From: a bacterium
GTDB taxonomy: Bacteria > Patescibacteriota > Minisyncoccia > Phycocordibacterales > Zambryskibacteraceae
Direction: 5' to 3'
Assembly (NCBI GenBank): GCA_030649135.1
Contig: JAUSGI010000002.1
Location: 1-64,000, forward strand
Length of the DNA: 64,000 nt
This document shows, one piece after another, positions 39,777-53,622 of the stretch. The first letter of the stretch is position 1; each line of letters starts with the position of its first letter. The translations under genes and the position numbers were made by a program. The notes under the pieces were generated by a model. It worked only from the letters and a program-made list of their open reading frames with translations, had not been told where the DNA came from and ran no database searches.

Positions 39777-39805
39777 TTGACTTTAAATATGTAATATGTT
39801 ATTAT
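39777..39805 (+). promoter_or_regulatory. Sigma70-like promoter: TTGACT, 17 nt, TATTAT
   Basis: TTGACT at 39777-39782 and TATTAT at 39800-39805, about 40 nt upstream of the 39845 start codon. Confidence 0.45.
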
Positions 39806-39844
39806 AGTAAAAGAGTGTAAATCAAGTTTGGGAAAGGACTTCTC

Positions 39845-40603: not shown

Positions 40604-40626
40604 AACGTGTCCAGTAGTGCATCACA

Positions 40627-40667
40627 ATGGCGACCGCAGTAATACACGCGGTCGCCATTTTCACTTT
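40627..40667 (+). terminator. Rho-independent terminator of the GC-rich gene 39845..40603
   Basis: atggcgaccgc-agtaatacac-gcggtcgccat is an 11-bp stem, followed by ttttcacttt. Confidence 0.7.
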
Positions 40668-42372
40668 AGAGAGGCAGGGACAAAATCACAAATCTCCCGT
40701 CATCATACAGGGCCTTGTTTAAAGAGATGCGCTCAAGATTATCGTGAGCACGATCGAGGATGAGATATTTAACGTTAAATTGTTGGAGGAGGGTGGCTTG
40801 ATCTTTTTTGACGGTCTTAAAACGCTCTACCAGCGTTTTGAAATATTCTTCCCCGCGGAGAGTAATCGAATCGGTACGTGGCGGACATTGGCGAGGACCA
40901 GCAAAACGCACCCAAACATCGCAGAGCCAGGCGCGCCGGTTTTGAGCTAGAGGCTCTAGTTCTGACGGCCCGGCGCCAGCGTAAAGCCCTAGACCACTCT
41001 TTATGTCTTCGATCGTCAAAACATCCATGCTATGCGAGACGAGATATCTATCCTCAAGTTCGGGCCCAGAAATATTATGAAGTACCGTACCTTCTGTAAA
41101 GAGTGGGTAGTGCCGAGTCATAATCGGTATATATTCCGAAATTGAATCGTTCGCCCAAATCACAGATTGTTCTGGCACATTTTTATCTAGCCATTTTAGC
41201 GGGCCAGCATAGGTCTGTAGATCGGCGGTATAATCACTACCACGTTCACCAAAAAACTTGAAAAAATCTAGCCCATGAGGAAGGTTTCTCACCACTCCTA
41301 CCGAGAGTATTGAGAGAAGAATCGCTACTACTATGTATTTGGTTCTGTGGGTTTTTAAAGTTTCTGAGAAATACCATTCATACAAACCGACTCCTAAAAT
41401 TATCACCATCCATAAAATGACAAAACGTCCGACATGCACGCCAAGAGTCAGTTCGACGCCAGTAATGATATTTAAACACAAGCTAACGAAGAGTGCCGCA
41501 CCTGTCGAGAACCAAAATACTTTTTGTTTTAAAGGCACCAGCCATGTCAAAAGCATTCCGACTGCCAACCAACGACCATAGAAAAAAACTTCTATCGATG
41601 GAACGCGAGTGTAAACAAGACCAATGCGACTAAGGGTTTCAAAGTAATAAGGGCCCTGCATCTGCATCAAGGTATAGAAACCGAAAGGGATAAGGAGGAG
41701 TGCGGTAAAAATACCGCAGGTCAGAAGCGAGCGTAACTCTTGGAAACGTCTGGTAAACAAAAACCAGAAAAAAATAAAGGCAAAACTTAACAAGACAATA
41801 TAAGAAAGATACGAGTAGACATAAAAGGCAGAAGCCGCAGCGAGCGAAAGCCAAACTATCCTCTTTCTCTCATGCGGCTCGTACAAGAACTTCAGAAGGG
41901 CAATGAGAAACATGAGAAAGAAAGGATAAACTATCTGCATAATGGTCGGCCGAAGCATGAGTGAATATAAACTGATATAGAGAAACACCGACCACAGGAA
42001 TGCCCACCCTCTCGGCAAACGCAAGAGCCGGAGCAGGGTAAAGGACAGAGCTAAAAATACAAAACTCCACGCGAACATATTAATCATAACGGCGAGATTA
42101 AACGGCACCCCAAGAAGCATTGGAATCGCTGAGACAATATCCGGCAAGAAAAACGCTGGAGCCAAATCCTTGCGGTATTCATAGACATACGGATTGCCGA
42201 GGAGCGGGTATCCATCCACCACTTCATGCATGCGCGCATAGTAATACAAACTGTCGGTAGAACCTCTGGGTAAGACGCCCTGCCAGTTTCGCCATCCCCC
42301 AACTTCGTATATGACAAAAATTGCTGGAATTAGTGTGGCCACCAAAGCGACGGCTAGGAACAATTTCTTCAT
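40666..42372 (-). CDS. GT-C-like polytopic membrane glycosyltransferase candidate; paralog of 28060..29808
   Basis: About 12 TM helices plus a C-terminal soluble domain with WANDSISEYIPIMTRHYPLF and QFNVKYLILDRAHD, which match motifs in the 28060 gene. Confidence 0.5.
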   Translation of the reverse strand: MKKLFLAVALVATLIPAIFVIYEVGGWRNWQGVLPRGSTDSLYYYARMHEVVDGYPLLGNPYVYEYRKDLAPAFFLPDIVSAIPMLLGVPFNLAVMINMFAWSFVFLALSFTLLRLLRLPRGWAFLWSVFLYISLYSLMLRPTIMQIVYPFFLMFLIALLKFLYEPHERKRIVWLSLAAASAFYVYSYLSYIVLLSFAFIFFWFLFTRRFQELRSLLTCGIFTALLLIPFGFYTLMQMQGPYYFETLSRIGLVYTRVPSIEVFFYGRWLAVGMLLTWLVPLKQKVFWFSTGAALFVSLCLNIITGVELTLGVHVGRFVILWMVIILGVGLYEWYFSETLKTHRTKYIVVAILLSILSVGVVRNLPHGLDFFKFFGERGSDYTADLQTYAGPLKWLDKNVPEQSVIWANDSISEYIPIMTRHYPLFTEGTVLHNISGPELEDRYLVSHSMDVLTIEDIKSGLGLYAGAGPSELEPLAQNRRAWLCDVWVRFAGPRQCPPRTDSITLRGEEYFKTLVERFKTVKKDQATLLQQFNVKYLILDRAHDNLERISLNKALYDDGRFVILSLPL

Positions 42373-42785
42373 GAGTTTTCATTATGGATGCTATCGGGAG
42401 AAAAAACCAGGTATTTAAACACAAAAAAACTATAGACGGCGACCAGACCGAGAACAAAAAATTGAGAGATTAGGTAATGAATATGAAGCATATCCACACT
42501 TATGTATAGGAGTAAAGCATTAACGCCTAGATTTAAAATCTGAATTCCTAGATAAACGAGAGACTGCTGTCTGATTTTCTCTTTTGTATAGTCGTTGAAA
42601 GTGAAAAACTTCTGCATCATGAAACTCACGGCAACCGCCACGATGAAGGCTACGACGGAAGCCAGCAAATACCACATATAAAAAAAGTGTACCAAGATAA
42701 AAAGCATGGTTAGATTTATAACTGCGGCAGAACCACCGGAGATAAGATAGCGAATGGCGCGATGATTAAGGATGATTTTTATCAT
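42369..42785 (-). CDS. GtrA-family protein (polyprenol-P-sugar translocation accessory)
   Basis: Four-TM ~130-aa protein; RYLISGGSAAVINLTMLFIL GtrA signature. Confidence 0.8.
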   Translation of the reverse strand: MIKIILNHRAIRYLISGGSAAVINLTMLFILVHFFYMWYLLASVVAFIVAVAVSFMMQKFFTFNDYTKEKIRQQSLVYLGIQILNLGVNALLLYISVDMLHIHYLISQFFVLGLVAVYSFFVFKYLVFSPDSIHNENS

Positions 42786-42825: not shown

Positions 42826-43383
42826 ATGATAAAAGAATACCTAGAAAAATCCTTGGCGGTAAAAAATGCCGCGCTGACCGATCAAAGCTTCCTTGAAAAT
42901 GCGGAGAAAGCGGGACGGCAAATTTATGACTCGCTGATGGCCGGTAAACATATTTATATCGCCGGTGTTGGCGGAGCAGCCGCAGAGTCGCAACATTTCT
43001 CCGCAGAACTCTTGGGTAAATACTCTGCGATGAGGAGAGCTTTTCCGGCAGTAGCCTTAACTACCGACTCCTCAATGCTTACTGCTTGGGCAAATGATAC
43101 CAGCTTTGACTTTATATTTTCGCGCCAACTTGAAGGCCTTGGAAAAGAAGGGGATATATTTGTCGCTCTCTCCGCGGGAGGAAACTCACCTTGTATCGTA
43201 GAAGCTCTTAAGACGGCAAACTCTATCGGAATGATCTCCATTGGTCTTTTGGGTAAAAGTGGCGGAAAAGCCAAAGAAATGTGCACCATTCCCATCGTCG
43301 TCCCTTCAGATGTTACTTCTCACATTCAAGAAACCCATCTCATGCTTGTTCACTTTTTCTGCGAATATTTAGAACCGCAGTAA
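42826..43383 (+). CDS. gmhA: D-sedoheptulose-7-phosphate isomerase (SIS domain)
   Basis: GVGGAAAESQHFSAELLGKY, ALTTDSS, FSRQLEGLGKEGDIFVALSAGGNS and VPSDVTSHIQETH align with the GmhA consensus. Start moved to the ATG at 42826 to avoid overlapping GtrA. Confidence 0.85.
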   Translation: MIKEYLEKSLAVKNAALTDQSFLENAEKAGRQIYDSLMAGKHIYIAGVGGAAAESQHFSAELLGKYSAMRRAFPAVALTTDSSMLTAWANDTSFDFIFSRQLEGLGKEGDIFVALSAGGNSPCIVEALKTANSIGMISIGLLGKSGGKAKEMCTIPIVVPSDVTSHIQETHLMLVHFFCEYLEPQ

Positions 43384-43463
43384 ACAAATACTTGACATTT
43401 GCATAGTATACAGATATAATCGGGAAAGAACTCATTCCCCTACACTACAAAAGGAGGGCACAC

Positions 43464-44141
43464 ATGCCCACGATTCTCAAGGCCATTCTTTGTGATGTCG
43501 ACGGAGTGCTCGTCGACACAGAGGGTCTGCATTTTCAGGCGTGGGATTGGATTTGTCGTGATATCGGAGGACAACCCCTCACTCAGGAAGAACACGCTAC
43601 TCTCGTTGGGAAAGACGGGCCAGTCATCATGAGGGAACTTTCCCAGATGAAGGGGTTCGGCGGCGATCTGACCAAACTCAATGACCGTTGCCGAGAGAAG
43701 TACATCGAGTTACGGCAGACTGGGAACATCCCAGTCATCATGGAGAACGTTATGCTTCTTCGTGAGTTTGCCGAGCTGTACTCGGGCTTAAGGTTCGCGG
43801 CTGTTTCTTCCGATACTCACGACCATATTCAGCAGAACCTTCGGGTAGCTGGGCTTGAAAATTTCTTCGAACTGGCAGTTTCCGCCCATTCAGACGGTTT
43901 GAAGAAGAAGCCCGCCCCCGACGTGTGGTTGGTGGCGATGAAGAGACTCGGAGTCGCTCCAGAAGAATGCCTAGCTTTCGAAGATTCACCAGCCGGAGTC
44001 GAATCTGTCACCAGCGCCGGGGTCAGGGTAGTGGCGCTACCCAGCCCCTCAACTGTATCCTGTAGCTTCCCGACCGCTCACACGGTCATCAAACCAGGAG
44101 AAAGGAAAAACGCCAGAGAAATCCTTGCGCGCGTGATGTAG
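43464..44141 (+). CDS. HAD-superfamily phosphatase (subfamily IA, beta-PGM-like) on a GC-rich island; candidate heptose-bisphosphate phosphatase
   Basis: ILCDVDGVLVDTE motif I; S/T motif II; K...AFEDSPAGVES motifs III/IV. Confidence 0.7.
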   Translation: MPTILKAILCDVDGVLVDTEGLHFQAWDWICRDIGGQPLTQEEHATLVGKDGPVIMRELSQMKGFGGDLTKLNDRCREKYIELRQTGNIPVIMENVMLLREFAELYSGLRFAAVSSDTHDHIQQNLRVAGLENFFELAVSAHSDGLKKKPAPDVWLVAMKRLGVAPEECLAFEDSPAGVESVTSAGVRVVALPSPSTVSCSFPTAHTVIKPGERKNAREILARVM

Positions 44142-44151
44142 TGTGCTCACC

Positions 44152-44180
44152 AAGAGCCGGGTCCTGACCCGGCTCTTTTC
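44152..44180 (+). terminator. Rho-independent terminator after the HAD gene
   Basis: aagagccggg-tcctga-cccggctctt is a 10-bp stem, followed by tttc. Confidence 0.7.
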
Positions 44181-44182
44181 AA

Positions 44183-44674
44183 TTACGATTTTTCTTTATA
44201 AATTTTAAGAATCTTTTCTATAATATTTGTCGTCGACTGAACACGGCCAGGAATAATTACCACCTTATCTACATTCTCGCGCACAAAGTCTGCTTGAATA
44301 TTTTGTTCCACAGTATAATCTCCACCTTTAGTATAAATGTCAGGGTGGACTGCTTTCAAAAAAGTGCCCGGGTCTTTTTCATCAAAAATATGAACGTAGT
44401 CGACGCAAGCCAGAGCTGCCACCACTTCCGCGCGTTCACGTTCAGGAATGATTGGACGAAGTTTTGATTTGTATTGTCTTACCGAAGCATCTGAATTTAT
44501 ACCCACTACTAGAATATCACCAAGCAATTTACTTTCTTCTAGAAGTATTTTCTGGCCGATGTGGAATACATCAAAAGCACCGTTGGTAGCTACAATTTTT
44601 TTACCATGCTTTTTGAGTTCCTCGACTCTTGCTTCAAGCTCGGAGAGAGAAACAATTTTGTGAGCTGTTTTCAT
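44183..44674 (-). CDS. D-glycero-beta-D-manno-heptose-1-phosphate adenylyltransferase (RfaE/HldE domain II, cytidylyltransferase fold)
   Basis: IVATNGAFDVFHIGQ (the GxFDxxHxGH motif), INSDASV and YTKGGDY match HldE C-domains. The track's N-terminal extension (start 44845) is implausible; start set at MKTAHKI. Confidence 0.8.
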   Translation of the reverse strand: MKTAHKIVSLSELEARVEELKKHGKKIVATNGAFDVFHIGQKILLEESKLLGDILVVGINSDASVRQYKSKLRPIIPERERAEVVAALACVDYVHIFDEKDPGTFLKAVHPDIYTKGGDYTVEQNIQADFVRENVDKVVIIPGRVQSTTNIIEKILKIYKEKS

Positions 44675-44769
44675 ATCAGACAGTATACAGCTGAAAAAAT
44701 ACTTGACAAGTAGGCTAAATCTATTATAATCAGAAGCAGACACAATCAATATAAACGCGAGGAGAACGT

Positions 44770-45504
44770 ATGAACTTCGCTGAGTTCTGCTCAAAACAAA
44801 GCAGTATCTACGACGACATGCGGAAGCAGGAATGCGAGGAATCACGGATCACAGGGATGATGGAAGATCCCGGGCTCGTCACTAGGAGAGGCGGGTTTTT
44901 TCTCTCCCTCATTCACCCGCCTGAGTTTGCTCAGAAAGTAGCGGATTTCTCCGCCAAGGTTGGCGCCCTGATGCCAGCAATGGTTTACAGCAACAAGGAG
45001 ATACACACGACCGTCGGGTCAATTTCCACTTCGGTCATCCCACACTTCTATTTCGACGGAAACCGTGAGGACCATGCGCACCAGCTTTCCGTCATCGAAC
45101 GCGTGGCGGAGGAGACAGCAAAGAGAGTGAAAGCGGGGGTATGCAAAATTGGTTTTATTACGCCCTGCATCCTTCTGCCGAATCTCATCATCGCGCCGGG
45201 CGAAGCGAATCAGAGCGTCTTCGAAGTGACGACCGCGCTGACCGAATTCGGTACACAGATGGGGTTAGCAATGGCCCCATGCAAAAACGGCCATGTGACA
45301 GTCAACCGCTTCACCGAAGCGAAGAGTGTAGGGGAAATATCCGATATTCTTAGGTTGATGGAGAAGGAGCCACCCTTTGGTGTCAGTCATCCGATCGGGA
45401 TCGCAGCGGGTTACACACTGCGTCACGAATCCGAACGAAATGTTACTGACCTTCGCGAAACACCCGGGCACTTCCACGGCACCAAGTTCTTCCGGTTCCA
45501 ATAA
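44770..45504 (+). CDS. Hypothetical protein on a GC-rich island
   Basis: 244-aa ORF with typical coding periodicity and its own terminator. No motifs recognised. Confidence 0.4.
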   Translation: MNFAEFCSKQSSIYDDMRKQECEESRITGMMEDPGLVTRRGGFFLSLIHPPEFAQKVADFSAKVGALMPAMVYSNKEIHTTVGSISTSVIPHFYFDGNREDHAHQLSVIERVAEETAKRVKAGVCKIGFITPCILLPNLIIAPGEANQSVFEVTTALTEFGTQMGLAMAPCKNGHVTVNRFTEAKSVGEISDILRLMEKEPPFGVSHPIGIAAGYTLRHESERNVTDLRETPGHFHGTKFFRFQ

Positions 45505-45508
45505 AGAC

Positions 45509-45540
45509 GGCCACCTCGAAGTTTGAGGTGGCCTTTTATC
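45509..45540 (+). terminator. Bidirectional intrinsic terminator between convergent genes
   Basis: ggccacctc-gaagttt-gaggtggcc followed by tttt. Confidence 0.65.
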
Positions 45541-45541
45541 C

Positions 45542-46264
45542 TTAATACGCGCTGATGCCATAGCCCGCAGCCTTGGCATCATCGTAGAACATTCGTACTG
45601 TTTCGAGCGAGTAGACGTCGTGGTCCTTGCCGACGAGCGACAACTTCTTGAGGATGTCGTTGGTTGCCGTGATGATGTGACAACCGACGGAGTCGGCCTG
45701 GAAGACATTGAGAAGCTCGCGTGGGCTGGCCCAGATGAGCTCAGCCTTCGGCCTCGCTCTCATGATCTCGACTGCCTGTTGCATTAACGGCATCGGATCA
45801 ACCCCGGTGTCAGCGATACGCCCTGCAAATACCGAGATGATGGCCGGTGTCCCTGGTGAGAGATGCTCGGTCACGGCCTTCACTTGTTCCAGAGTGAGTA
45901 ACGCCGTGACGTTGAGCTTCACGCCAGCGTGCGACAGCCGCTCGATAAGCGGGCCACTCGACTCCCCTGTCGTGTTGGTGACTGGAATCTTGACGTAGAC
46001 GTTATCGCCCCACGAGGCGATGACGCGCGCTTGCGCCTCCATCTCATCGAAGTCGTCAGCGAAAACTTCGAACGACACCGGGCGATCCGAGATAGTGGCG
46101 AGCACTTCCTTGGCAAACGCCTTGTAGTCAGTGACACCCGCCTTCCTCATCAGCGTAGGGTTGGTCGTGAACCCTTTAATGAGGGGGTTCGCGTACATCT
46201 CCTTCATGCCGGTGAGGTCCGCGCCGTCTGCGAATAACTTGATTTTGAGTTCTTGGATGTTCAT
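45542..46264 (-). CDS. Transaldolase/fructose-6-phosphate aldolase family (short Tal type) on a GC-rich island
   Basis: FADGADL, TTNPTL, VKIP (Schiff-base Lys), NVTALLT, SVFAGRIAD. Confidence 0.8.
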   Translation of the reverse strand: MNIQELKIKLFADGADLTGMKEMYANPLIKGFTTNPTLMRKAGVTDYKAFAKEVLATISDRPVSFEVFADDFDEMEAQARVIASWGDNVYVKIPVTNTTGESSGPLIERLSHAGVKLNVTALLTLEQVKAVTEHLSPGTPAIISVFAGRIADTGVDPMPLMQQAVEIMRARPKAELIWASPRELLNVFQADSVGCHIITATNDILKKLSLVGKDHDVYSLETVRMFYDDAKAAGYGISAY

Positions 46265-47226
46265 GAGTTTTTCTCCTTTAAGATTTTCACTAAATCTTTC
46301 CTTCTGGGTGGCATAGTACCATGAATTTTAGTTGAAAGTGCTCCCCAGATATTGGCTATCCTAAGAGATTCTTCAGGTCGGTTTCTATCTCCAAGACTAA
46401 AAGCCGCCAAAAAAGCATCGCCTGCCCCGCAAACATCGACCGCTTTTACTTTATATGGCCGGCTTTTTATATACTGGTCACTAAATATAGCTATGGAGCC
46501 TAGACCACCCAGTTTAACCACAACATTTTTTAGCTTTAACTTTTTCATTATTACCAAAAGAGACTGCTCAGGCTTTTGGAGATTAAACTTAGGGTACACA
46601 CTCTTAGCTTCTTTTTGGTTTAAAAACATCGTGTCTACCCCTTTATATAAATGGTGATTCGAAGGACGGTGAAAAACTTGCACATCGACATGCAAAGGTT
46701 TTTTATATTTCTTACTCATAGCAACAATATTTTTAATCAACTTTTTTGAGAGCATTCCATGCTGGGGGTCCATAATAACAACAACGTCTACATGTGGGGC
46801 ATTAGCTTCCACTAATTTAATTATTTTTTTCTCCAGATCGGAATTAATGTAGTGATTATCAACTTTGTTAACTTGTAGGAGTTTCAGATTTTTGTCATAC
46901 CATCTTCTCTTAACAGTCGTTTTCCGGGTCGGATCTATTAAAAAAATCTTTTTTAATTTTGGATGTGTCCACGAATCATAATATTTCGCATCTTCATCGT
47001 CACCCAAGATGGTAACAAAAGTTACCCTCCCCCCGAGATTTAAAATATGACTGGCAATCAGTCCATTACCACCGAAAAATATTGATGACTTTCTCTCTTC
47101 CATTTCTGGCGCAGGAGCATCAGGAGACAGACCGATAGTATTGCCATAAATATAAATATCCAGTATAGTGTCGCCCACTAGCAACACCTTTTTATCTTTA
47201 AATGACCTTATAATATCTGGCTTCAT
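46261..47226 (-). CDS. D-glycero-beta-D-manno-heptose-7-phosphate kinase (RfaE/HldE domain I, PfkB family)
   Basis: VLLVGDTILDIYIYGNTIGLSPDAPAPE parallels the HldE N-terminus; DVCGAGDAF PfkB signature. Confidence 0.8.
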   Translation of the reverse strand: MKPDIIRSFKDKKVLLVGDTILDIYIYGNTIGLSPDAPAPEMEERKSSIFFGGNGLIASHILNLGGRVTFVTILGDDEDAKYYDSWTHPKLKKIFLIDPTRKTTVKRRWYDKNLKLLQVNKVDNHYINSDLEKKIIKLVEANAPHVDVVVIMDPQHGMLSKKLIKNIVAMSKKYKKPLHVDVQVFHRPSNHHLYKGVDTMFLNQKEAKSVYPKFNLQKPEQSLLVIMKKLKLKNVVVKLGGLGSIAIFSDQYIKSRPYKVKAVDVCGAGDAFLAAFSLGDRNRPEESLRIANIWGALSTKIHGTMPPRRKDLVKILKEKNS

Positions 47227-47250
47227 CCATGGTATAATACACTTTTTGCT

Positions 47251-48027
47251 ATGAAATATAAATCTATTCTTCTAGATGTCGACGGGACACTTGTCGCTGT
47301 CGGACCCAATACAATTCCATCTGAAAGAGTGCGAGAAGTCCTAAGCCATGCCAAATATGTGGCACATGTTTCTCTTGTTTCTGGACGTTGTCTTGATTGG
47401 CTCAAAGAAATCTTTCGAGTCCTTGATTTGACAGCTCCTTCTATTATCAACGGTGGTTCACAAATCATTAATCCAAAAACGGGAGAGATTCTTTGGGAGC
47501 GGCCAATCACGCAAGAAGATGTGGGAAAAGTGCTAAGAATAGTTACAAGAGACGGGATTCCTTTTGTGGTCAGTGACAACGGTATTGAGTATGAGAATCC
47601 ACCCCAGTCCGAATTTACTAATCCCCTTGCTATAAAACTTTCGTATTTTGATTCTAAAGAGAAATCTGACCAGTGTCTAAAGATTCTAGAATCGATACAG
47701 GGTATTTCGGCCCATAAAACTTTTTCCTGGAATAAAGAAAGAAACTACATAATGGATATATACATCACTCATAGAGAAGCCACCAAACATCACGCTGCCG
47801 AAGAATTAGCAAAAATTTTAGGAATTGAAACTCATGAAATGATAGGGGTTGGTGATGCTCGAAACGACGTTCCCCTGCTCAATGTGTGTGGACTAAAGGT
47901 GGCTATGGGTAACGCCGACGACAAACTGAAGAAAATTGCTCATTACATTGCCCCTAGTGTAGACGAGGACGGTGTGGCTCACGTGGTGGAGAAGTTTATT
48001 CTTTCTCAATTGGTCTGTTCTGGCTAG
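47251..48027 (+). CDS. HAD-IIB (Cof-type) sugar phosphatase
   Basis: ILLDVDGTL; SGR; GDARNDVPLL. Confidence 0.8.
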   Translation: MKYKSILLDVDGTLVAVGPNTIPSERVREVLSHAKYVAHVSLVSGRCLDWLKEIFRVLDLTAPSIINGGSQIINPKTGEILWERPITQEDVGKVLRIVTRDGIPFVVSDNGIEYENPPQSEFTNPLAIKLSYFDSKEKSDQCLKILESIQGISAHKTFSWNKERNYIMDIYITHREATKHHAAEELAKILGIETHEMIGVGDARNDVPLLNVCGLKVAMGNADDKLKKIAHYIAPSVDEDGVAHVVEKFILSQLVCSG

Positions 48028-49153
48028 CTTCTTTGAGAGCTTCTACTGCCGCAGTTATAACATCTTCAAGACGGGTGGACTCCGCTATGCGCTCCGCTTC
48101 TTTAACATCGTGATTCCGCGTGTTCATAATACAAAGTAATGGTTTGGGTCCTCCGGGGGGAAAGACCATCTTGTGAATTTTGCCTTGCGGCGGCTGGTCC
48201 CATGGATTAACTGGGCCGAGGATATCGACCGTTGGGATATTAAAGGCTTCAGCAATGTATAGAGGGCCAGTATTGACACTCACAAAAACATCCAGCTTCG
48301 ATATGATCGCCTTTAATTCGTCTATTGATACAGAAGTGGTATCAGTCACCATTGATTTATCCTCGATCGCCAACATCATTTCATTAGACTCGCGTAGGTC
48401 GTTCCTACCGCCAATAACAAAAATATGGACGCTAAACTTTTCGATAAGATGATTCGCTACTTTGGCAAAATTTTTTGGACTCCATTGCTTTTCTTTATTA
48501 CCAGAACCGGCTGCAATACCAACGATATATTTGTATGGTTCACATATTTGAGAAATTATCTCCGCAGCCCTTTTTTCAGCAGTTTCGGAAAAGCCAAGGT
48601 GTTTGGTGGTATCGTCTGTAAAAATACCGAGTGATTCGAGAGCTTTCAATCTTTCTCTGGGAGCATATCCATCCAACTGATGCGGAAAGGTCTTAATAAG
48701 CCTCTGAAGAATTTTATAGGGCCTGGTCACATCATGGGCTACACCTCCCACGGCAGCCGGAGCTATCACTAAGGGAATCCCGGCAAGGTAAAGTAGAGAG
48801 GTGTGTTTAAATGATGGGCCAGTCACTATCGCTACTTCAGGATGATATTTTTTAATACGTTCTGTAGCCCCTTCATCCTCCAGATCAACATATTCATTAA
48901 CCAATCTACTGTCCGACAAAAGTGGACGATGCAATTTAGAATTACCCGCTACGATAATACGCGCTTTCGGTAAGTGCGCTCGAATGGCACGCAAGACTGG
49001 TGTAGCACAGACCACATCGCCCAGTTTACCAGTTGGCACCACCACAATATCGGAAATGCTTTTGGGAATCTTAGTGGCAGTTCCGTGGAAAAGTGCCCTT
49101 ATTAGACATTGGACAAGAAGTAGCATTCTATTGGCTCTATTTAAAAAATCCAT
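47996..49153 (-). CDS. ADP-heptose:acceptor heptosyltransferase (GT9)
   Basis: PTGKLGDVVCATPVLRAIRAHLP N-terminus; IGIAAGSG... VNTGPLYIAEAFNIPTVDILGP C-terminal GT9 pattern. Confidence 0.8.
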   Translation of the reverse strand: MDFLNRANRMLLLVQCLIRALFHGTATKIPKSISDIVVVPTGKLGDVVCATPVLRAIRAHLPKARIIVAGNSKLHRPLLSDSRLVNEYVDLEDEGATERIKKYHPEVAIVTGPSFKHTSLLYLAGIPLVIAPAAVGGVAHDVTRPYKILQRLIKTFPHQLDGYAPRERLKALESLGIFTDDTTKHLGFSETAEKRAAEIISQICEPYKYIVGIAAGSGNKEKQWSPKNFAKVANHLIEKFSVHIFVIGGRNDLRESNEMMLAIEDKSMVTDTTSVSIDELKAIISKLDVFVSVNTGPLYIAEAFNIPTVDILGPVNPWDQPPQGKIHKMVFPPGGPKPLLCIMNTRNHDVKEAERIAESTRLEDVITAAVEALKEASQNRPIEKE

Positions 49154-49216
49154 GTCGTTTTTTATAATTATAATACAAAGTGGGGCGGAGAGCTTGTGAC
49201 TCCCCGCCCCGGTTTC

Positions 49217-50743
49217 TCAAGTAGTTTTTCCGCCCTCCCATCGCGTCCCGATTTCTATCTGGAGACGCTTTCTGCGGTACTCCTCCGAGTTGACGCCAAA
49301 CTCCGCCCATTGTTGCAGTTCCTCGATTCTTTCCGGAGGTACTGTCGTGTTCTTCATGACAGCATTCCTCCAGTTAAAAATATCGGGGTCGAAGTCTTGC
49401 ACCAAGTACCCGTCACGCAGAGCCAAATCATGTAGGTTACTGCCGGGCAGAGGAACAGGGATCTTGAAAGAACAGTAATCTGCCCCCGCACCCACCAGCC
49501 GCCGGCCGAGCTCGATCGAGGACATCATCTCTGCCTCGGTCTCGTCCGGGAAACCGATCATCATGTTGATGGGGCACGTGATACCGATATTCCTCGCAAC
49601 CCTCACCAGCTCGACTACATCGAGTCGTTCATGGTTGAGCTTCCTCGTCGCATGCTGGTCAAGAATGCGCTGGGAAGCTGACTCCACCGGGAAAACGATC
49701 TGTGTGAGACCGCAGTCATAGAGGAGTTGCAGGAACTCTACATCGATGACCGGCTTGCCTCCGACGCTTCCCTTGAGAAAGTGCACCAGATTCACTCCGT
49801 TCACGTCAGCGAGCTTGAGCCCCAGGCCTCGGACTTTCCCGAGAATCTTACGCATCCGCGGCTTGTTGGCCAGGAGCGTATCATCCTCGAGGTAGACTTT
49901 TGTGACACCAAGGCTCTTGAGTATTGAGAGCTCTTCGAACACCCGCGCTTCGGACTTGAAGCGCAACTTGGCGATCCCGCCACTCTCCTCTTCATTTTCA
50001 CTTTCTTTAGAGATGTGGCAGTACGAGCACTTGAAAATACATCCGCGGGATGTTTGCATGTTCCCGGAACGCTCTGGGTCTTTGAGAAAGGCCCTTCCGC
50101 CAGCTGCTTCGGCACGATCGTAATGCATCCAGGGAAGCTTGTGCCATGCCGGGATGGGCAGAGCATCAAGATTAGTGAGCGTATCCCCCACTTGAGGAAA
50201 ACGTCTCACGATTCTCCCATTCTGCATGGTGACTGTTCCAGAGACGGCGAGACTTTCCCCCGCTTCCCAGGCTTGGATGACCTCGACGACCACCCGCTCA
50301 CCTTCGGTATTGCAAATGGCATCTACGCCGGCCGCGAGGAACCGTTTGTGAAGAGCTCGGGCGTTAACGCCACCGGCAATGACCAGGATTTCCGGAGATA
50401 CTGCCTTGGCCGCCTTGACGACTTCAAGTGCCATCCTGTGCTGCGGAGTGAAAATGGAGCTAAGACCGACAACGTTGTAGCCACCACGAGCGATGACCTC
50501 ACTCATCCGATCGGTCGTCATGCCGATACGGGTGAGGCCGTTTTCCTGCATGACAAGCTTGTCGAAGGTGTCTTCAAGCTTGTCATCCGGCGTGCCGACA
50601 TTGGCGTCGAGCAACTCCGACTCAATACCGGCTCGTTCGAGCGAGGCATCGAGATACAAGAGACCGAGCGAACCATCGACACGACGGGCTTCTCTCTTCG
50701 CCAACTGGGTAGGATGGTAAATGAGCAGAGCTTTTGCCTTCAC
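49217..50743 (-). CDS. B12-binding-domain radical SAM enzyme (class B; probable C-methyltransferase or rearrangement enzyme) on a GC-rich island
   Basis: N-terminal cobalamin-binding Rossmann region (VVGLSSIFT... VIAGGV); radical SAM cluster motif RGCIFKCSYCH (CX3CX2C). Confidence 0.8.
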   Translation of the reverse strand: MKAKALLIYHPTQLAKREARRVDGSLGLLYLDASLERAGIESELLDANVGTPDDKLEDTFDKLVMQENGLTRIGMTTDRMSEVIARGGYNVVGLSSIFTPQHRMALEVVKAAKAVSPEILVIAGGVNARALHKRFLAAGVDAICNTEGERVVVEVIQAWEAGESLAVSGTVTMQNGRIVRRFPQVGDTLTNLDALPIPAWHKLPWMHYDRAEAAGGRAFLKDPERSGNMQTSRGCIFKCSYCHISKESENEEESGGIAKLRFKSEARVFEELSILKSLGVTKVYLEDDTLLANKPRMRKILGKVRGLGLKLADVNGVNLVHFLKGSVGGKPVIDVEFLQLLYDCGLTQIVFPVESASQRILDQHATRKLNHERLDVVELVRVARNIGITCPINMMIGFPDETEAEMMSSIELGRRLVGAGADYCSFKIPVPLPGSNLHDLALRDGYLVQDFDPDIFNWRNAVMKNTTVPPERIEELQQWAEFGVNSEEYRRKRLQIEIGTRWEGGKTT

Positions 50744-50801: not shown

Positions 50802-51977
50802 TTAAGTCAAGGTCTTTTTTATAAATTCGGCGATAGCGATGCCGCGTTTTTCCCAAGTGTATTTATCTTTAGTAATCCAGGCTTGGTTCGACAAACTTTG
50901 GGCCAGTTCTCGGTCATTATAGATTTTTAGGATAGCCTTCGCCCACCCTTTCGGAGTATTCGTCTCTATAATCAGGGCATCGGCTCCGTCGGTAAGCACC
51001 TCTTCGATACATGCTGTATGACCACCAACAATCGGCCGGCGACTAGCAAGTGCCGGAAACATTTTGGCAGGAGAATCCCCTATTAAATCTTTCTTTCGTT
51101 TTGGGATAAGAATGATATCGAATGCCTGTAGATATTTCGGTATCTCGCTCCTTTCCTGCCACGGCACAATAATTACCCGCCCTTGGACACCACTTTCTTG
51201 CGCAATTTCTCGTAACCATCCCGCATTCTCGTTCAGTTCACCCACAATCACAGCCACGATATTTGTCGGTAGAGATGCAAGGCTCTTCACGATATCGTCC
51301 ACTTCATAGTAGTCATTATTCGGATTGGCTCCGACCACACCGGTGTATCCTATAAGAAATAAATCGTTGGGAAGCTCTAATTCTTTCCGAAATGTGTATC
51401 TGTCTTGCGAATAGTCAAACCATGAATCCTCGGCCGCGCTACACAGAGAGAGCAGAATACTGTGATTGGATTTTTGATAATACCGTTTAAGTCCAGAACT
51501 GATGGCAATTACGCCGTCCGCCCATCTTACTGAAACCGTATTCAAAAATTGCCTAGGCTTGCTTTCCAGCACCGAATGTATCTCGAAAAACACTTTTTTC
51601 TGCAAAATCATCTTCGCCGCCAAGACTGCGGGGAAAAGCGACTCGTCTCGAAAATAAACCGCGTCGAATTCTCCCGTATGCATGAGGAAAAACCAGGTGA
51701 GACGAAGATTGGCAACAAAAAACATAAATAGTTCATACCAACTCTTACCGCCATACCTGGAGACGGTATTTGTCGCTTGTAGGCAGACAATATCAAATGG
51801 CTGATGGATACCCATCTTGCTGAAGAAGACGTGCCTGTCTCTATCTTGGTCCGTTGTCATAAACCTGACTTGAATATCTTTGTCGGTATTTACGGCTTCA
51901 CATGTTTTAGCCAGATTATAAACATTGGTCCTTCCGGCCAAAAGATTTACCCTAGAGATAAAGAGTATGCGTATCAT
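50802..51977 (-). CDS. Glycosyltransferase family 4
   Basis: GT-B C-terminal domain GGHTACIEEVLTDGADALII. Confidence 0.8.
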   Translation of the reverse strand: MIRILFISRVNLLAGRTNVYNLAKTCEAVNTDKDIQVRFMTTDQDRDRHVFFSKMGIHQPFDIVCLQATNTVSRYGGKSWYELFMFFVANLRLTWFFLMHTGEFDAVYFRDESLFPAVLAAKMILQKKVFFEIHSVLESKPRQFLNTVSVRWADGVIAISSGLKRYYQKSNHSILLSLCSAAEDSWFDYSQDRYTFRKELELPNDLFLIGYTGVVGANPNNDYYEVDDIVKSLASLPTNIVAVIVGELNENAGWLREIAQESGVQGRVIIVPWQERSEIPKYLQAFDIILIPKRKKDLIGDSPAKMFPALASRRPIVGGHTACIEEVLTDGADALIIETNTPKGWAKAILKIYNDRELAQSLSNQAWITKDKYTWEKRGIAIAEFIKKTLT

Positions 51978-52723
51978 AGTCTTACATCTTTACGCTTGAC
52001 TTCTTCTTGATGATAAAGTGGAAGAAGAGCCTCGTAAGAACCGACTTCGGCCCCAATACTTTCAAAGTAACGCGGGAAATATTTCCCGCAATTTAACCGC
52101 AAGGTTTCGGAACTAAGTTTTATTTTGGATAGAAAGTTAAAAAGGTCAAATCCAGCGAGGGTAGAAACACCGGCATAATCGTAGTCGATAAGGTAAATAT
52201 CTTTTTCCGAGACAAGGACATTATCCGGTGTCATGTCTCCATGTTGGGTAATCACGGGCAATCTAATATTATCGGGAAGTGTCTGAAATTCCTTGGTATT
52301 TTGTGCCAAATGAGACTGCCAAGCAATATAGTTTTCCATCACCAGCTCCACGTCTTGAGTTGAAGCCGAAAATCTCACCCCTGGGCAAACGGATTCAATA
52401 CAAAATACTATTTTCCCATCATCATAGAGATAAAGTGGAAGAGCAAAGAGGCTGGAATGAACACTTCCCTTCACCTCTTCTTGAAGCTTCTGAAGATTAT
52501 GATGATTCTCCCTGATACTCTCTCCCGCCGCGTAAGTACGAGTAGTTTTAACACAAAGGGTTGGCCATTTTTCCTCTTCTTCAAAGACAAAGATGAGAAC
52601 CTTGCCTTGGTCGACTTTAGTCCCAGAAGCCGGAGTACTGGTCTTCATAAACGACAGTTTGCTCTCTCTGGCATGAAGCCATTCTGGATGCTCTTTTATA
52701 AGCTTGGTTAGAATAGCAATCAT
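51974..52723 (-). CDS. Protein-kinase-like phosphotransferase (APH/ChoK/WaaP-type); candidate sugar (heptose) kinase
   Basis: HGDMTPDNVLV catalytic loop; IDYDYAG (DFG-equivalent). Confidence 0.65.
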   Translation of the reverse strand: MIAILTKLIKEHPEWLHARESKLSFMKTSTPASGTKVDQGKVLIFVFEEEEKWPTLCVKTTRTYAAGESIRENHHNLQKLQEEVKGSVHSSLFALPLYLYDDGKIVFCIESVCPGVRFSASTQDVELVMENYIAWQSHLAQNTKEFQTLPDNIRLPVITQHGDMTPDNVLVSEKDIYLIDYDYAGVSTLAGFDLFNFLSKIKLSSETLRLNCGKYFPRYFESIGAEVGSYEALLPLYHQEEVKRKDVRL

Positions 52724-53622
52724 TTCTGTACTACTATGCCAAAACTAAAGAAAAAATAGCGATAGAGCCACAACAAGATTGATGAGTGCACAATGGAGTG
52801 CAGGGCATACGAGAGCGCATTTAGATTGTCATATGGAATCATCATTCGTGGCAAATTATATCCCGGGTATGTAAGGTAAAATTCTATATTATTGAAGCCG
52901 GCTTCGCGGAGAAGTTTCTCATAGCCACTTTTGGTATAAGTGTAGGTATCGTAACTTCTCCCTCTCCTCAACTTCATGTAGATATTAGCTACAAAACGTG
53001 GCATGTAGCTCGTAAAGTAAAGTCCGCTGTGGTCCCGGCCTCGTAGATAGGCCAAGGCGAAGCGATTCTCGATGCCAATATAGAGATGCCCGCCTTTTTT
53101 TAATAAATCTTTGGCGATTTTTAAACTGGCGATTTGCGCCTCTCGGGGGTCGTGAAAGCGCTCTGTAGCACCGACCCATTCCAGAAGTCCATTCATGACA
53201 ATTAAGTCAAAGCTCTCTTTTCCAAAAGGTTTGTCCAAAATATCTCCCACATAGACCTCGATATTTTTGAGACCCTCTTTTTCGGCTCTTAATTTCAGAA
53301 ACTTCATCCGCAAATATGAACCATCAAGAGCCACAACACTTGACGCAACCCTGGCCAGCGGAATACTAATCCGCCCCATACCGGCCCCAACGTCCAAGAC
53401 TCTAAAGTCCTCGGCCAGAGGAATAACGAAGCGCCAATCAGCCCTGTTTTCCTCAAAAGTTTGGTCAAATTTATTGCTGAAACGACTTCTAAACTCATCC
53501 CATCCCTCCTTTTCTATCACTTCAACGGCTCTCTCCAGCTCTTCTTTGGGCGCTTTTCCCCAATAACGATCTTCGGAGAAAAAGGGTATGCCTTCAACTA
53601 TTTTCTTATAATTTGCGTTCAT
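52720..53622 (-). CDS. Class I SAM-dependent methyltransferase
   Basis: VLDVGAGMGRISIPLA; FDLIVMNGLLEW; LKKGGHLYI. Confidence 0.8.
   Translation of the reverse strand: MNANYKKIVEGIPFFSEDRYWGKAPKEELERAVEVIEKEGWDEFRSRFSNKFDQTFEENRADWRFVIPLAEDFRVLDVGAGMGRISIPLARVASSVVALDGSYLRMKFLKLRAEKEGLKNIEVYVGDILDKPFGKESFDLIVMNGLLEWVGATERFHDPREAQIASLKIAKDLLKKGGHLYIGIENRFALAYLRGRDHSGLYFTSYMPRFVANIYMKLRRGRSYDTYTYTKSGYEKLLREAGFNNIEFYLTYPGYNLPRMMIPYDNLNALSYALHSIVHSSILLWLYRYFFFSFGIVVQK

What the first reader, a model, noticed from the sequence alone, without database searches (positions are those of the whole stretch)
42826..49153. Complete ADP-heptose pathway with a dedicated transaldolase and a GT9 heptosyltransferase
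GmhA (42826-43383), a split HldE kinase (46261-47226) and adenylyltransferase (44183-44674), two HAD phosphatases (43464-44141; 47251-48027) and a GT9 heptosyltransferase (47996-49153) are contiguous. Between them lies a transaldolase (45542-46264), which can supply the GmhA substrate sedoheptulose-7-phosphate. The WaaP-like kinase at 51974-52723 could phosphorylate the heptose. This is an LPS-inner-core toolkit in a locus that otherwise looks like surface-protein or S-layer glycosylation (Wzx/Wzy-like, GT2/GT4, GtrA). The pattern suggests heptosylation of a non-LPS acceptor.
Basis: partly seen in the sequence, partly recalled or inferred. Interest (0 to 1): 0.55.

Follow-up and report, generated by a model that had tools for sequence, protein, structure and literature searches.

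The report
ADP-heptose cassette in an LPS-less bacterium
A tiny uncultured bacterium of the Patescibacteria (CPR), a group described as having no outer membrane, carries a compact gene set that should make the "Gram-negative" sugar donor ADP-heptose from central metabolites and attach the heptose to a surface glycan rather than to LPS.

Summary
HMM, PDB and fold searches support GmhA, a split HldA kinase and HldC adenylyltransferase, a Staphylococcus-type transaldolase, two HAD hydrolases and a GT9 transferase. Corrections:
- Neither HAD belongs to the GmhB family.
- No HldD epimerase is recognisable.
- HldC reads HIGQ where relatives read HxGH.
- An unmentioned 244-aa ORF lies inside the cassette.
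- The "WaaP-like" kinase is a choline-kinase/APH-type protein. It also occurs in related loci that lack heptose genes.

SecA is 77-85% identical to Ca. Zambryskibacteria/Minisyncoccia, placing the host in the Patescibacteria, which the literature describes as monoderm. A non-LPS acceptor is therefore likely. It is not proven, because the rest of the genome was not visible and a KdsB-family gene lies at 20.2 kb.

New here:
- A TAL-family gene lies within 5 kb of the HldA-like kinase in 21 of 30 well-flanked metagenome loci, so the transaldolase is part of the module.
- The CPR GT9 family splits into a heptose-linked subfamily (Asn at position 294) and a larger one with no heptose genes nearby.
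- In some loci the isomerase slot holds a cupin or an unknown 377-aa protein instead of GmhA.

One ecogenomics paper already noted ADP-heptose synthesis in Paceibacteria. Verdict: a real, moderately interesting variant of a known pathway.

The parts
42826..43383 (+). GmhA, sedoheptulose-7-phosphate isomerase (SIS type)
   Evidence: Pfam SIS_2. Best NCBIfam hits are phosphoheptose isomerase, below the equivalog cut-off. Best PDB hit 1tk9, E 1.4e-44; the aligned QH..E and IQE.H stretches are conserved. Orthologues are 73-79% identical in L007, L010, L015, L022 and L023.
43464..44141 (+). HAD-IA hydrolase (beta-phosphoglucomutase-like), an accessory candidate phosphatase or mutase
   Evidence: HAD_2 85.7 bits; TIGR02009 98.7 bits, below cut-off. 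A 41% identical orthologue lies next to GmhA in L010. Absent from L007, L012 and L015. A 12/12 sigma-70 consensus match lies at 43392-43420.
44183..44674 (-). HldC-like heptose-1-phosphate adenylyltransferase with an HIGQ motif
   Evidence: TIGR02199 151.6 bits (cut-off 181.5). Best PDB hit 5x9q, E 5.5e-27. The motif is HIGQ here and in the nearest relative L012, against H-x-G-H in L002, L007, L010, L011 and 5x9q.
44770..45504 (+). 244-aa ORF of unknown function inside the cassette
   Evidence: No Pfam or NCBIfam hit and no credible PDB hit. Called as a gene on the Logan contig. 82% identical in L012. A 12/12 promoter match lies at 44703-44730 and a terminator-like hairpin at 45509-45533. The single-sequence AF2 model was unusable, pLDDT 34.5.
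45542..46264 (-). Transaldolase (Staphylococcus/Coxiella type), proposed supplier of sedoheptulose-7-P
   Evidence: TIGR02134 373.8 bits, above the cut-off of 282. PDB 1vpx, E 2.5e-19. The Asp, Glu, Schiff-base Lys and Phe positions are conserved. It overlaps the HldA stop by 4 nt. 76-84% identical next to HldA in L002, L007, L012, L015 and L022.
46261..47226 (-). HldA-like PfkB kinase (heptose-7-P 1-kinase)
   Evidence: PfkB 78.8 bits; TIGR02198 160.8 bits (cut-off 345). [quoted passage not shown] 217 homologues were found, and the named ones are mostly CPR.
47251..48027 (+). Cof-type HAD-IIB phosphatase, best candidate for the GmhB step
   Evidence: Hydrolase_3 129.6 bits; TIGR00099 126.8 bits (cut-off 137). 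60-80% identical and in the same divergent position beside HldA in L002, L007, L012-L017, L022 and L023.
47996..49153 (-). GT9 glycosyltransferase, CPR subfamily A (proposed heptosyltransferase)
   Evidence: PF01075 51.8 bits (cut-off 22). PDB sequence hits 3tov and 1psw. AF2 pLDDT 93.9, with best folds 3tov, WaaF and WaaC. G45, D46 and K222 are invariant. Subfamily signature E221, Q223, N294, N316, P317.
49217..50743 (-). B12-binding radical SAM enzyme (class B methyltransferase-like), co-inherited with GT9 subfamily A
   Evidence: B12-binding and Radical_SAM domains; best NCBIfam hit is a P-methyltransferase family at 116 bits, far below its cut-off. 62-91% identical directly upstream of GT9 in L002, L012-L015, L022 and L023.
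50802..53622 (-). GT4 (50802-51977), choline-kinase/APH-like kinase (51974-52723) and methyltransferase (52720-53622): the conserved partners of the CPR GT9
   Evidence: Pfam. The same MT-kinase-GT4-GT9 order occurs in L004, L006, L008 and L009, which lack heptose genes within 10 kb.
40666..42785 (-). GtrA-family protein (42369-42785) and a 568-aa polytopic membrane protein (40666-42372), conserved neighbours of GT9
   Evidence: GtrA_DPMS_TM 80.7 bits. The 568-aa protein has 9 hydrophobic segments and then about 200 soluble residues. A GT9-GtrA-TM protein order is seen in L005 and L007, and in L012 with the cassette between GT9 and GtrA.

Best explanation
The window comes from a Zambryskibacteria-like member of the Patescibacteria (CPR). 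[quoted passage not shown]

Proposed steps:
1. Transaldolase converts fructose-6-P plus erythrose-4-P into sedoheptulose-7-P.
2. GmhA isomerises it to D-glycero-D-manno-heptose-7-P.
3. The HldA-like PfkB kinase phosphorylates C1.
4. A HAD phosphatase removes the 7-phosphate. The conserved Cof-type enzyme is the likely one, standing in for GmhB. The HAD-IA enzyme is accessory.
5. The HldC-like enzyme adds AMP.
6. The GT9 GT-B transferase moves the heptose, at the cytoplasmic face of the membrane, onto a lipid-linked oligosaccharide built by the neighbouring GT4 enzymes.
7. That glycan is exported and attached by the Wzx-like and Wzy_C/TPR proteins elsewhere in the same 45-kb locus, onto a surface acceptor other than lipid A.

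Shown here: the family assignments, the fold of GT9, the conserved synteny and the taxonomy.
Inferred: every substrate, the phosphatase assignment, the D,D configuration (no HldD is recognisable) and the acceptor.
For: Family and structure assignments.

Transcriptional and translational linkage:
- HldA and Tal overlap by 4 nt.
- The same overlap occurs in L002 and L012.

Conserved order in independent contigs:
- rSAM-GT9-Cof-HldA-Tal-HldC, followed by GmhA where present and then GtrA-TM568, is conserved at 57-94% identity in L002, L007, L012, L013, L015, L022 and L023.
- GmhA itself is present in L007, L015, L022 and L023. It was not found in the fetched part of L002 and is replaced by a 377-aa ORF in L012 and L013.

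Linkage in more distant lineages:
- A different GT9 and a different TAL subfamily again lie beside an HldA, HldC and GmhA or cupin set in L010 and L011.
- A TAL-family gene lies within 5 kb of the kinase in 21 of 30 well-flanked metagenome loci.

GT9 subfamily association:
- The subfamily carrying the query's signature (31 sequences) is the one found beside heptose genes.
- Five of five examined loci of the other subfamily have none within 10 kb.

Host assignment:
- SecA is 77-85% identical to Zambryskibacteria, Minisyncoccia and Parcubacteria proteins.
- CPR are described as monoderm.
- No lpx, kdsA or waaA gene was found in the 64-kb window.
- A published survey lists ADP-heptose biosynthesis in Paceibacteria (PMC9166423).
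Against: - GmhA, HldA and HldC all score below NCBIfam equivalog cut-offs, so their specificities are extrapolated.
- HldC has Gln in place of the second His of the HxGH nucleotidyltransferase motif. The nearest relative shares this, so it is probably tolerated, but the activity is unproven.
- There is no GmhB-family and no HldD-family protein.
- GT9 subfamily A has Asn where WaaF and the 3tov GT9 have an Asp in the aligned 'DSG' motif. I take this to be Asp261 of WaaC, said to contact the heptose, from memory.
- A KdsB-family gene above cut-off lies in the same window.
- The rest of the genome was not examined, so absence of lipid A genes is inferred from taxonomy only.
- No priming transferase was recognised in the window.
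Confidence: 0.62

Rival explanations
1. The cassette makes a nucleotide sugar other than plain ADP-D,D-heptose, for example a C-methylated or otherwise modified heptose, a different nucleotide carrier, or a higher or lower ketose-derived sugar. GT9 subfamily A would transfer that product.
For: - The kinase, adenylyltransferase and isomerase are below equivalog cut-offs.
- HldC has HIGQ.
- GT9 has N294 rather than Asp.
- A B12-radical SAM methyltransferase-like gene is always upstream of this GT9 subfamily.
- Related modules use a cupin, or a 377-aa unknown protein, instead of GmhA.
- An SDR similar to GDP-fucose synthase lies nearby.
Against: - GmhA's PDB hits are phosphoheptose isomerases (plus the paralogue DiaA), best E 1.4e-44.
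- The best PDB relatives of the kinase and the adenylyltransferase are 4e84 and 5x9q.
- The transaldolase keeps the Tal-type Glu and Phe, which fits sedoheptulose-7-P as the entry point.
Confidence: 0.17
2. The transaldolase is simply this small genome's only pentose-phosphate transaldolase and happens to lie here. It is not dedicated to heptose synthesis.
For: It belongs to TIGR02134, which NCBIfam labels an equivalog transaldolase model. From memory, this family serves as the housekeeping transaldolase in Staphylococcus and Coxiella. Freshwater CPR, including Paceibacteria, are reported to encode part of the pentose phosphate pathway (PMC9166423). No second TAL is visible in the window.
Against: - It overlaps the kinase gene by 4 nt, and the adjacency is conserved.
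- Two TAL subfamilies that are only 28-33% identical each lie beside the kinase in distant lineages.
- TAL lies within 5 kb of the kinase in 21 of 30 loci.
- Both statements can hold: it may be the sole copy and still be co-regulated with the cassette.
Confidence: 0.12
3. The GT9 enzyme heptosylates a protein directly in the cytoplasm, as the TibC/AAH autotransporter heptosyltransferases do, rather than a lipid-linked glycan.
For: TibC appears among the fold matches (TMq about 0.52). The window encodes large surface proteins, including cohesin- and dockerin-bearing ones and an ORF of at least 1415 aa.
Against: - Closer fold and sequence matches are WaaF, WaaC and 3tov.
- I saw no Cys cluster like the TibC iron-finger (that feature recalled from memory) in the sequence.
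- In related loci the gene overlaps or abuts the upstream GT4 gene, within a Wzx/Wzy-type locus.
Confidence: 0.06
4. This is an ordinary LPS inner-core locus of a diderm bacterium.
For: The enzyme families are those of the LPS inner core. A KdsB-family gene lies in the window. A 37% identical GT9 occurs in a MAG labelled Gammaproteobacteria.
Against: - SecA and about fifteen other genes have their closest relatives in Patescibacteria.
- CPR are described as monoderm.
- No lpx, kdsA or waaA gene lies in 64 kb.
- The GT9 scores far below the WaaC, WaaF and WaaQ cut-offs.
Confidence: 0.03

Closest known systems
LPS inner-core ADP-heptose pathway of Gram-negative bacteria (GmhA, HldE or split HldA/HldC, GmhB, HldD; WaaC/WaaF GT9), as reviewed in PMC10221265
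   Same: The same enzyme families are present for isomerase, kinase, adenylyltransferase and GT9 transferase. The kinase and adenylyltransferase are split, as in Neisseria (PMC10221265) and Burkholderia (from memory).
   Different: - The host is a CPR bacterium described as monoderm.
- The phosphatase is a Cof-type or HAD-IA enzyme, not a GmhB (HAD-IIIA) enzyme.
- There is no HldD.
- A transaldolase is built into the operon.
- The GT9 belongs to a divergent CPR clade with an N-terminal helix extension and Asn at the position aligned with the 'DSG' Asp of WaaF.
- The acceptor cannot be Kdo2-lipid A unless lipid A genes exist elsewhere in the genome.
[quoted passage not shown]
   Same: Heptose is placed on a non-LPS surface glycan, in one case of a monoderm. 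Synthesis starts from sedoheptulose-7-P through GmhA.
   Different: That route uses a GHMP kinase (HddA), GmhB and a GT-A-type guanylyltransferase (HddC), and gives the alpha-anomer on GDP. Here the beta/ADP-type enzymes and a GT9 transferase are present.
ADP-heptose synthesis in Gram-positive Streptomyces for septacidin and hygromycin B (Tang et al. 2018, cited in PMC10221265)
   Same: ADP-heptose is made by a bacterium without LPS.
   Different: There the heptose goes into a secondary metabolite, not into an envelope glycan. There is no Wzx/Wzy context.
TibC/AAH bacterial autotransporter heptosyltransferases (PDB 4rap, 4rb4)
   Same: GT-B enzymes related to GT9 that use ADP-heptose on a non-LPS acceptor.
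   Different: They are more distant in fold. Dodecameric iron-finger enzymes (as the PDB titles state) that, from memory, act on proteins in Proteobacteria.
[quoted passage not shown]
   Same: The same class of CPR and the same pathway call.
   Different: In the passage read it is a one-line survey result, with no mention of the transaldolase, the GT9 subfamilies, the missing GmhB/HldD or the acceptor.

Membership tests
Glycosyltransferase family 9 (heptosyltransferases) | Match to the family HMM above the curated threshold | tested here: met
   PF01075 51.8 bits against a gathering score of 22.
Glycosyltransferase family 9 (heptosyltransferases) | GT-B two-Rossmann fold closest to solved GT9 enzymes | tested here: met
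   AF2 model pLDDT 93.9. The top Foldseek hits are 3tov, WaaF 1psw and WaaC 6dfe/2h1h, with probability 1.00 and TMt 0.74-0.79.
Glycosyltransferase family 9 (heptosyltransferases) | N-terminal Gly-Asp (catalytic Asp13 of WaaC, numbering from memory) and the phosphate-binding Lys before Trp | tested here: met
   G45, D46 and K222 are invariant and W224 nearly invariant across the CPR homologues. They align with the GD and K-x-W of 3tov and WaaF.
Glycosyltransferase family 9 (heptosyltransferases) | Asp of the C-terminal 'D-(S/T)-G' motif (Asp261 of WaaC, from memory) | tested here: not met
   The query and 28 other sequences of subfamily A have Asn294. Subfamily B (86 sequences), two subfamily-A members, WaaF and 3tov have Asp.
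Glycosyltransferase family 9 (heptosyltransferases) | Use of ADP-heptose as donor | not testable with these tools
   Only gene linkage is available. Subfamily A lies beside heptose genes in every examined locus.
LPS heptosyltransferases WaaC/WaaF/WaaQ (equivalogs) | Score above the NCBIfam equivalog cut-off | tested here: not met
   TIGR02193 62 bits against 185.3; TIGR02195 45.5 against 134.6; TIGR02201 48.2 against 170.2.
GmhA (sedoheptulose-7-P isomerase) | Equivalog HMM cut-off | tested here: not met
   NF010546 171.6 bits against 276; TIGR00441 155 against 209.45.
GmhA (sedoheptulose-7-P isomerase) | Closest solved relatives are GmhA, with conserved active-site His, Glu and Gln motifs | tested here: met
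   Of the 15 PDB hits, 13 are phosphoheptose isomerases and 2 are the paralogue DiaA (best 1tk9, E 1.4e-44). The 'QHF.AEL' and 'IQE.H....H' stretches align. The roles of these residues are from memory.
HldA / HldE domain I (heptose-7-P kinase) | Equivalog-domain cut-off; PfkB fold with a GAGD motif; closest solved relative | tested here: inconclusive
   TIGR02198 is the best hit, at 160.8 bits against 345. [quoted passage not shown]
HldC / HldE domain II (heptose-1-P adenylyltransferase) | HxGH nucleotidyltransferase motif | tested here: not met
   HIGQ in the window and in L012. HVGH, HPGH or HRGH in L002, L007, L010, L011 and 5x9q.
HldC / HldE domain II (heptose-1-P adenylyltransferase) | Equivalog-domain cut-off and closest solved relative | tested here: inconclusive
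   TIGR02199 151.6 bits against 181.5. Best PDB hit 5x9q, E 5.5e-27.
GmhB (heptose-1,7-bisphosphate 7-phosphatase, HAD-IIIA) | Match to GmhB/HAD-IIIA histidinol-phosphatase-like models | tested here: not met
   The two HADs match HAD-IA (beta-PGM-like) and Cof HAD-IIB. HAD-IIIA appears only at 20.6-20.8 bits, below its cut-off, and no GmhB model is listed.
HldD (ADP-heptose 6-epimerase) | TIGR02197 above cut-off | tested here: not met
   The three SDRs tested score 67.4, 44 and 36.2 bits against 274.6. They match GDP-fucose synthase or dTDP-glucose dehydratase models better.
Transaldolase, TIGR02134 (Staphylococcus/Coxiella type) | Equivalog cut-off; Schiff-base Lys, Asp and Glu; Phe rather than the Tyr of FSA | tested here: met
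   373.8 bits against 281.95. The 'VKIP', 'FADGAD', 'SFEV' and 'SVFAGR' stretches align with the T. maritima transaldolase 1vpx.
WaaP (LPS core heptose kinase) | Match to a Kdo/WaaP kinase family | tested here: not met
   Only Choline_kinase (32.7 bits), APH (25.6 bits) and TCAD9 (below cut-off) are listed in Pfam. NCBIfam gives only weak hits below cut-off, to guanitoxin, Bud32 and thiamine kinases. The gene is conserved in loci without heptose genes.
LPS biosynthesis system | Presence of lipid A (Lpx), KdsA and WaaA genes in the genome | not testable with these tools
   None is present among the ORFs of the 64-kb window that were scanned. A KdsB-family gene is present (290.5 bits against 255). 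The other contigs of the MAG could not be read. Taxonomy points to a monoderm host.

The most novel reading that the evidence does not exclude
Patescibacteria, and other uncultured lineages that carry the related HldC-HldA-cupin-TAL module, possess a self-sufficient route to ADP-heptose that needs neither GmhB nor HldD. In this route a built-in transaldolase feeds the pathway, and the isomerase step is filled interchangeably by SIS-type GmhA, a cupin or an unknown 377-aa protein. The product is used by a CPR-specific GT9 clade to build a heptose-containing envelope glycoconjugate in cells without LPS, possibly on a Kdo-like sugar activated by the KdsB-family enzyme of the same locus. ADP-heptose, regarded as a Gram-negative signature and an innate-immune agonist, would then also be made by monoderm ultra-small bacteria. 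The heptose-linked and heptose-free GT9 subfamilies would record a donor switch inside one conserved gene cluster.
Probability: 0.3. Interest if true: 0.68.

Novelty: new variant of a known kind. Interest (0 to 1): 0.48.

Why it matters
Heptose and its donor ADP-heptose are treated as hallmarks of the Gram-negative LPS inner core and as an innate-immune alarm signal. A complete, conserved cassette with its own transaldolase and a dedicated GT9 transferase, in bacteria described as lacking an outer membrane, would have three consequences:
- The sugar would also be used in an unknown CPR envelope glycoconjugate.
- It would give a concrete handle on the almost uncharacterised cell surface of CPR bacteria, in the form of genes to express and a sugar to look for.
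- It would offer natural examples of non-orthologous replacement at the phosphatase and isomerase steps.

The split of the CPR GT9 family into heptose-linked and heptose-free subfamilies is a testable case of changing donor specificity.

Tried and rejected
- Rfam and tRNA scans of the window found nothing, so they gave no taxonomic help.
- The exact-sequence look-up shows the source is an NCBI MAG labelled only 'bacterium'. Taxonomy therefore came from a SecA homologue search.
- The single genome-contig scan with GT9 returned only two loci.
- Literature searches for heptosyltransferase or ADP-heptose combined with Patescibacteria, CPR or Parcubacteria, for transaldolase with ADP-heptose clusters, for GT9 in monoderms, and for heptose with cupin and transaldolase found nothing relevant. 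Only the heptose plus Saccharibacteria search surfaced the one-line Paceibacteria report.
- The 244-aa ORF gave no family hit and no credible PDB hit, and its single-sequence AlphaFold model was unusable at pLDDT 34.5. My reading of two H-x-T motifs as a 2H-phosphoesterase signature remains untested.
- The 377-aa protein that replaces GmhA in L012 has no Pfam, NCBIfam or PDB match.
- HldD was looked for among three SDRs and rejected.
- WaaP identity of the 249-aa kinase was rejected.
- I could not test whether genomes with the heptose-free GT9 subfamily carry heptose genes elsewhere. The only hint is that no listed contig length is shared between those GT9 hits and the listed HldA hits, which is weak.
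- An assembly error as the cause of the HIGQ motif was rejected. An independent Logan assembly is identical over 21,158 bases, and the nearest relative shares the motif.

Full report
OBSERVATION.

- GmhA (42826-43383, +) is a SIS_2 protein. Its best NCBIfam matches are all phosphoheptose isomerase, and its best PDB relative is C. jejuni GmhA (1tk9, E 1.4e-44).
- The PfkB kinase (46261-47226, -) has TIGR02198 (HldE domain I) as its top model. [quoted passage not shown]
- The 163-aa nucleotidyltransferase (44183-44674, -) has TIGR02199 (HldE domain II) as its top model. Its top PDB hit is 5x9q, which I take from memory to be Burkholderia HldC.
- The transaldolase (45542-46264, -) exceeds the TIGR02134 equivalog cut-off, 373.8 against 282 bits. 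It keeps the Asp, Glu, Lys and Phe positions seen in the T. maritima transaldolase 1vpx.
- GT9 (47996-49153, -) passes the PF01075 threshold.
- With 43 homologues, GT9 gives an AlphaFold model of pLDDT 93.9. Its nearest solved folds are the Veillonella GT9 3tov, WaaF and WaaC.

Start codons at 42826 and 44674 are supported by where the orthologues begin.

CORRECTIONS TO THE OBSERVATION.
- GmhA, HldA and HldC all lie below NCBIfam equivalog cut-offs.
- The two HAD proteins are a beta-phosphoglucomutase-like HAD-IA and a Cof-type HAD-IIB. Neither matches GmhB.
- None of the SDRs tested in the window scores as HldD.
- HldC reads F-H-I-G-Q where four CPR orthologues and 5x9q read H-x-G-H. The nearest relative (L012, 85% identical) shares the Gln, and an independent assembly is base-for-base identical. 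The change is therefore real and apparently tolerated.
- A 244-aa ORF (44770-45504, +) with no detectable family sits between Tal and HldC. It has a perfect -35/-10 consensus match upstream and a strong hairpin downstream, and it is 82% conserved in L012.
- The 'WaaP-like' kinase (51974-52723) hits Choline_kinase and APH, with no listed hit to a WaaP-type family.

WHO CARRIES IT. The window matches an NCBI MAG labelled only 'bacterium'. Several lines place it in the Patescibacteria.
- Its SecA is 77-85% identical to proteins of Ca. Zambryskibacteria, Minisyncoccia and Parcubacteria.
- The closest GTDB genome that carries the GT9 is a Patescibacteria MAG (63% identical).
- Named relatives of GT9 and HldA are almost all CPR.

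CPR are treated as monoderm in the literature I could read (10.1101/2021.05.31.446380; PMC8871954). No lpx, kdsA or waaA gene occurs among the ORFs of the window that were scanned.

There is one caveat. A 249-aa protein at 20235-20984 exceeds three NCBIfam KdsB (CMP-Kdo synthetase) cut-offs. The rest of the genome could not be inspected.

SURROUNDINGS. The cassette sits in a surface-glycan locus of about 45 kb. That locus contains:
- a Wzy_C/TPR protein, a Wzx-like protein and a polysaccharide deacetylase;
- several GT2 and GT4 enzymes, many methyltransferases and DegT aminotransferases;
- NDP-sugar dehydratases and a GtrA protein;
- a 568-aa polytopic membrane protein with a soluble C-terminal part.

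COMPARATIVE ANATOMY. In close relatives the order rSAM-GT9-Cof(opposite strand)-HldA-Tal-HldC is kept. GmhA follows on the opposite strand in some of them, and GtrA-TM568 comes after. This holds for L002, L007, L012, L013, L015, L022 and L023 at 57-94% identity. HldA and Tal overlap by 4 nt in the window, L002 and L012.

More distant CPR loci with GT9 46-55% identical are L004, L005 (Yanofskybacteria), L006, L008 and L009. They keep methyltransferase-APH-like kinase-GT4-GT9-GtrA, but have no heptose genes within 10 kb. The cassette therefore looks like an insertion between GT9 and GtrA in one lineage.

An alignment of 117 GT9 homologues splits cleanly into two subfamilies.
- Subfamily A has 31 sequences including the query. 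Its typical signature is E221, Q223, N294, N316 and P317.
- Subfamily B has 86 sequences. Its typical signature is I221, E223, D294, D316 and E317.
- Every A member whose context is known lies beside heptose genes. All five B loci examined do not.

THE TRANSALDOLASE IS PART OF A WIDER MODULE.
- In L010 (a 719-kb contig) and L011 (Nealsonbacteria), HldA homologues 47-56% identical again lie next to a TAL-family gene. That gene is only 28-33% identical to the window's transaldolase and belongs to the fsa/talC-like subfamily.
- The same two loci also hold HldC, a different GT9, and either GmhA (L010) or a cupin (L011).
- A metagenome scan with an HldA alignment returned 79 loci. Of the 30 with at least 4 kb on both sides, 21 have a TAL gene within 5 kb of the kinase, 25 have an HldC-like gene, 11 have the cupin and 6 have GmhA.
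- The cupin's best solved relatives are cupin-type phosphoglucose isomerases, but the match is weak (E 4.7e-4).
- Within the Zambryskibacteria-like clade, GmhA is present in the window, L007, L015, L022 and L023. An unannotatable 377-aa ORF occupies the same slot in L012, L013 and L016. The two are mutually exclusive.

MECHANISM.
Shown here: the families, the GT9 fold, the synteny and the host taxonomy.

Inferred steps:
1. Tal supplies sedoheptulose-7-P.
2. GmhA isomerises it.
3. HldA phosphorylates C1.
4. The conserved Cof-type HAD removes the 7-phosphate in place of GmhB. The HAD-IA enzyme is accessory, being present only here and in L010.
5. HldC adenylylates.
6. GT9 transfers D,D-heptose onto a lipid-linked oligosaccharide made by the adjacent GT4 enzymes. 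This is followed by Wzx export and Wzy_C-type polymerisation or ligation to a non-lipid-A acceptor.

The B12-radical SAM enzyme is always upstream of subfamily A GT9, which suggests a further modification such as methylation. That is speculation.

COMPARISON AND NOVELTY. The chemistry is that of the Gram-negative inner-core pathway (PMC10221265). ADP-heptose without LPS is known in Streptomyces secondary metabolism (same review), and heptosylated S-layer glycans are known through the GDP route (own knowledge). [quoted passage not shown]

I could not find the following described anywhere:
- the built-in transaldolase;
- the non-GmhB phosphatase;
- the interchangeable isomerases;
- the CPR GT9 clade with its two subfamilies;
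- the implication of an LPS-independent acceptor.

I rate the finding a new variant of a known kind, with interest about 0.48.

LIMITS. All substrate assignments are by homology and linkage. The absence of LPS rests on taxonomy. Whether genomes with subfamily B GT9 carry heptose genes elsewhere is unknown.

Noticed in passing
window 20235-20984 (-), with neighbours 19316-25406: A KdsB-family (CMP-Kdo synthetase) protein scores above three NCBIfam cut-offs. Its neighbours are an SDR, a Zn-dependent dehydrogenase, a xylose-isomerase-like TIM barrel, a 2-hydroxyacid dehydrogenase and a NagB/Pgl-like protein. No KdsA or WaaA is present. Homologues lie near GT9 in L009 (49% identical, with the 2-hydroxyacid dehydrogenase at 41%) and in L003 (36%). 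This may activate a Kdo-like or other acidic sugar in an LPS-less bacterium.
   Followed up: partly
L012 15358-16491 (-); also L013 and L016: A 377-aa ORF with no Pfam, NCBIfam or PDB match occupies the slot that GmhA (plus HAD-IA) occupies in the window. It is mutually exclusive with GmhA among the Zambryskibacteria-like loci. It is a candidate non-orthologous heptose-phosphate isomerase.
   Followed up: partly
L011 9556-12453; many of L018-L066: A four-gene module recurs widely in metagenome contigs without a SIS-type GmhA. It consists of an HldC-like gene, an HldA-like gene, a cupin (weakly like cupin phosphoglucose isomerase and lyxose isomerase) and a TAL/FSA-like gene. In L011 the TAL has Met at the position of the catalytic Glu.
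   Followed up: partly
window 47996-49153 and homologues P0001-P0120: The CPR GT9 family splits into two sharply defined subfamilies (signatures EQN.NP and IED.DE). Only the first is linked to heptose genes. Both carry a conserved N-terminal helix of about 35 residues (residues 3-23 in the model) that lies outside the region aligned to WaaF and 3tov.
   Followed up: partly
window 49217-50743 (-): A B12-binding radical SAM enzyme lies between GT4 and GT9 only in loci with GT9 subfamily A. A terminator-like hairpin (49182-49210) separates it from GT9.
   Followed up: no
window 44770-45504 (+): The 244-aa orphan ORF contains two H-x-T-x motifs (IHTTV and GHVTV) reminiscent of 2H phosphoesterases. 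This is my own reading and no tool supports it. A perfect 12/12 sigma-70 consensus match lies at 44703-44730.
   Followed up: partly
window 36904-42785: An Arn-like decoration submodule is present. It comprises GtrA, a 568-aa polytopic membrane protein (a possible GT-C), an SDR, a small ArnC/AglJ-like GT2 and a DegT aminotransferase. Similar sets lie next to GT9 in L005 and L012.
   Followed up: no
window 51974-54233 (-): A choline/ethanolamine-kinase-like protein is followed by two SAM methyltransferases. The kinase and the adjacent 300-aa methyltransferase are conserved beside GT4-GT9 in several CPR lineages (L004, L006, L008, L009). This might make a phospho-amino-alcohol decoration, which is speculation.
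   Followed up: no
window 57353-58195 (+) and 62692-63360 (+); 58267-59550 and 61240-62580 (-); 3-4247 (-): Two IS200/Y1-transposase-like genes flank genes for a cohesin-domain protein and a dockerin-domain protein. An ORF of at least 1415 aa with no Pfam hit runs off the start of the window.
   Followed up: no
window 6635-7594 (-): The Obg GTPase is only 319 aa. Its Pfam hits (GTP1_OBG and a GTPase domain) end near residue 303, so there is no room for a further C-terminal domain.
   Followed up: no
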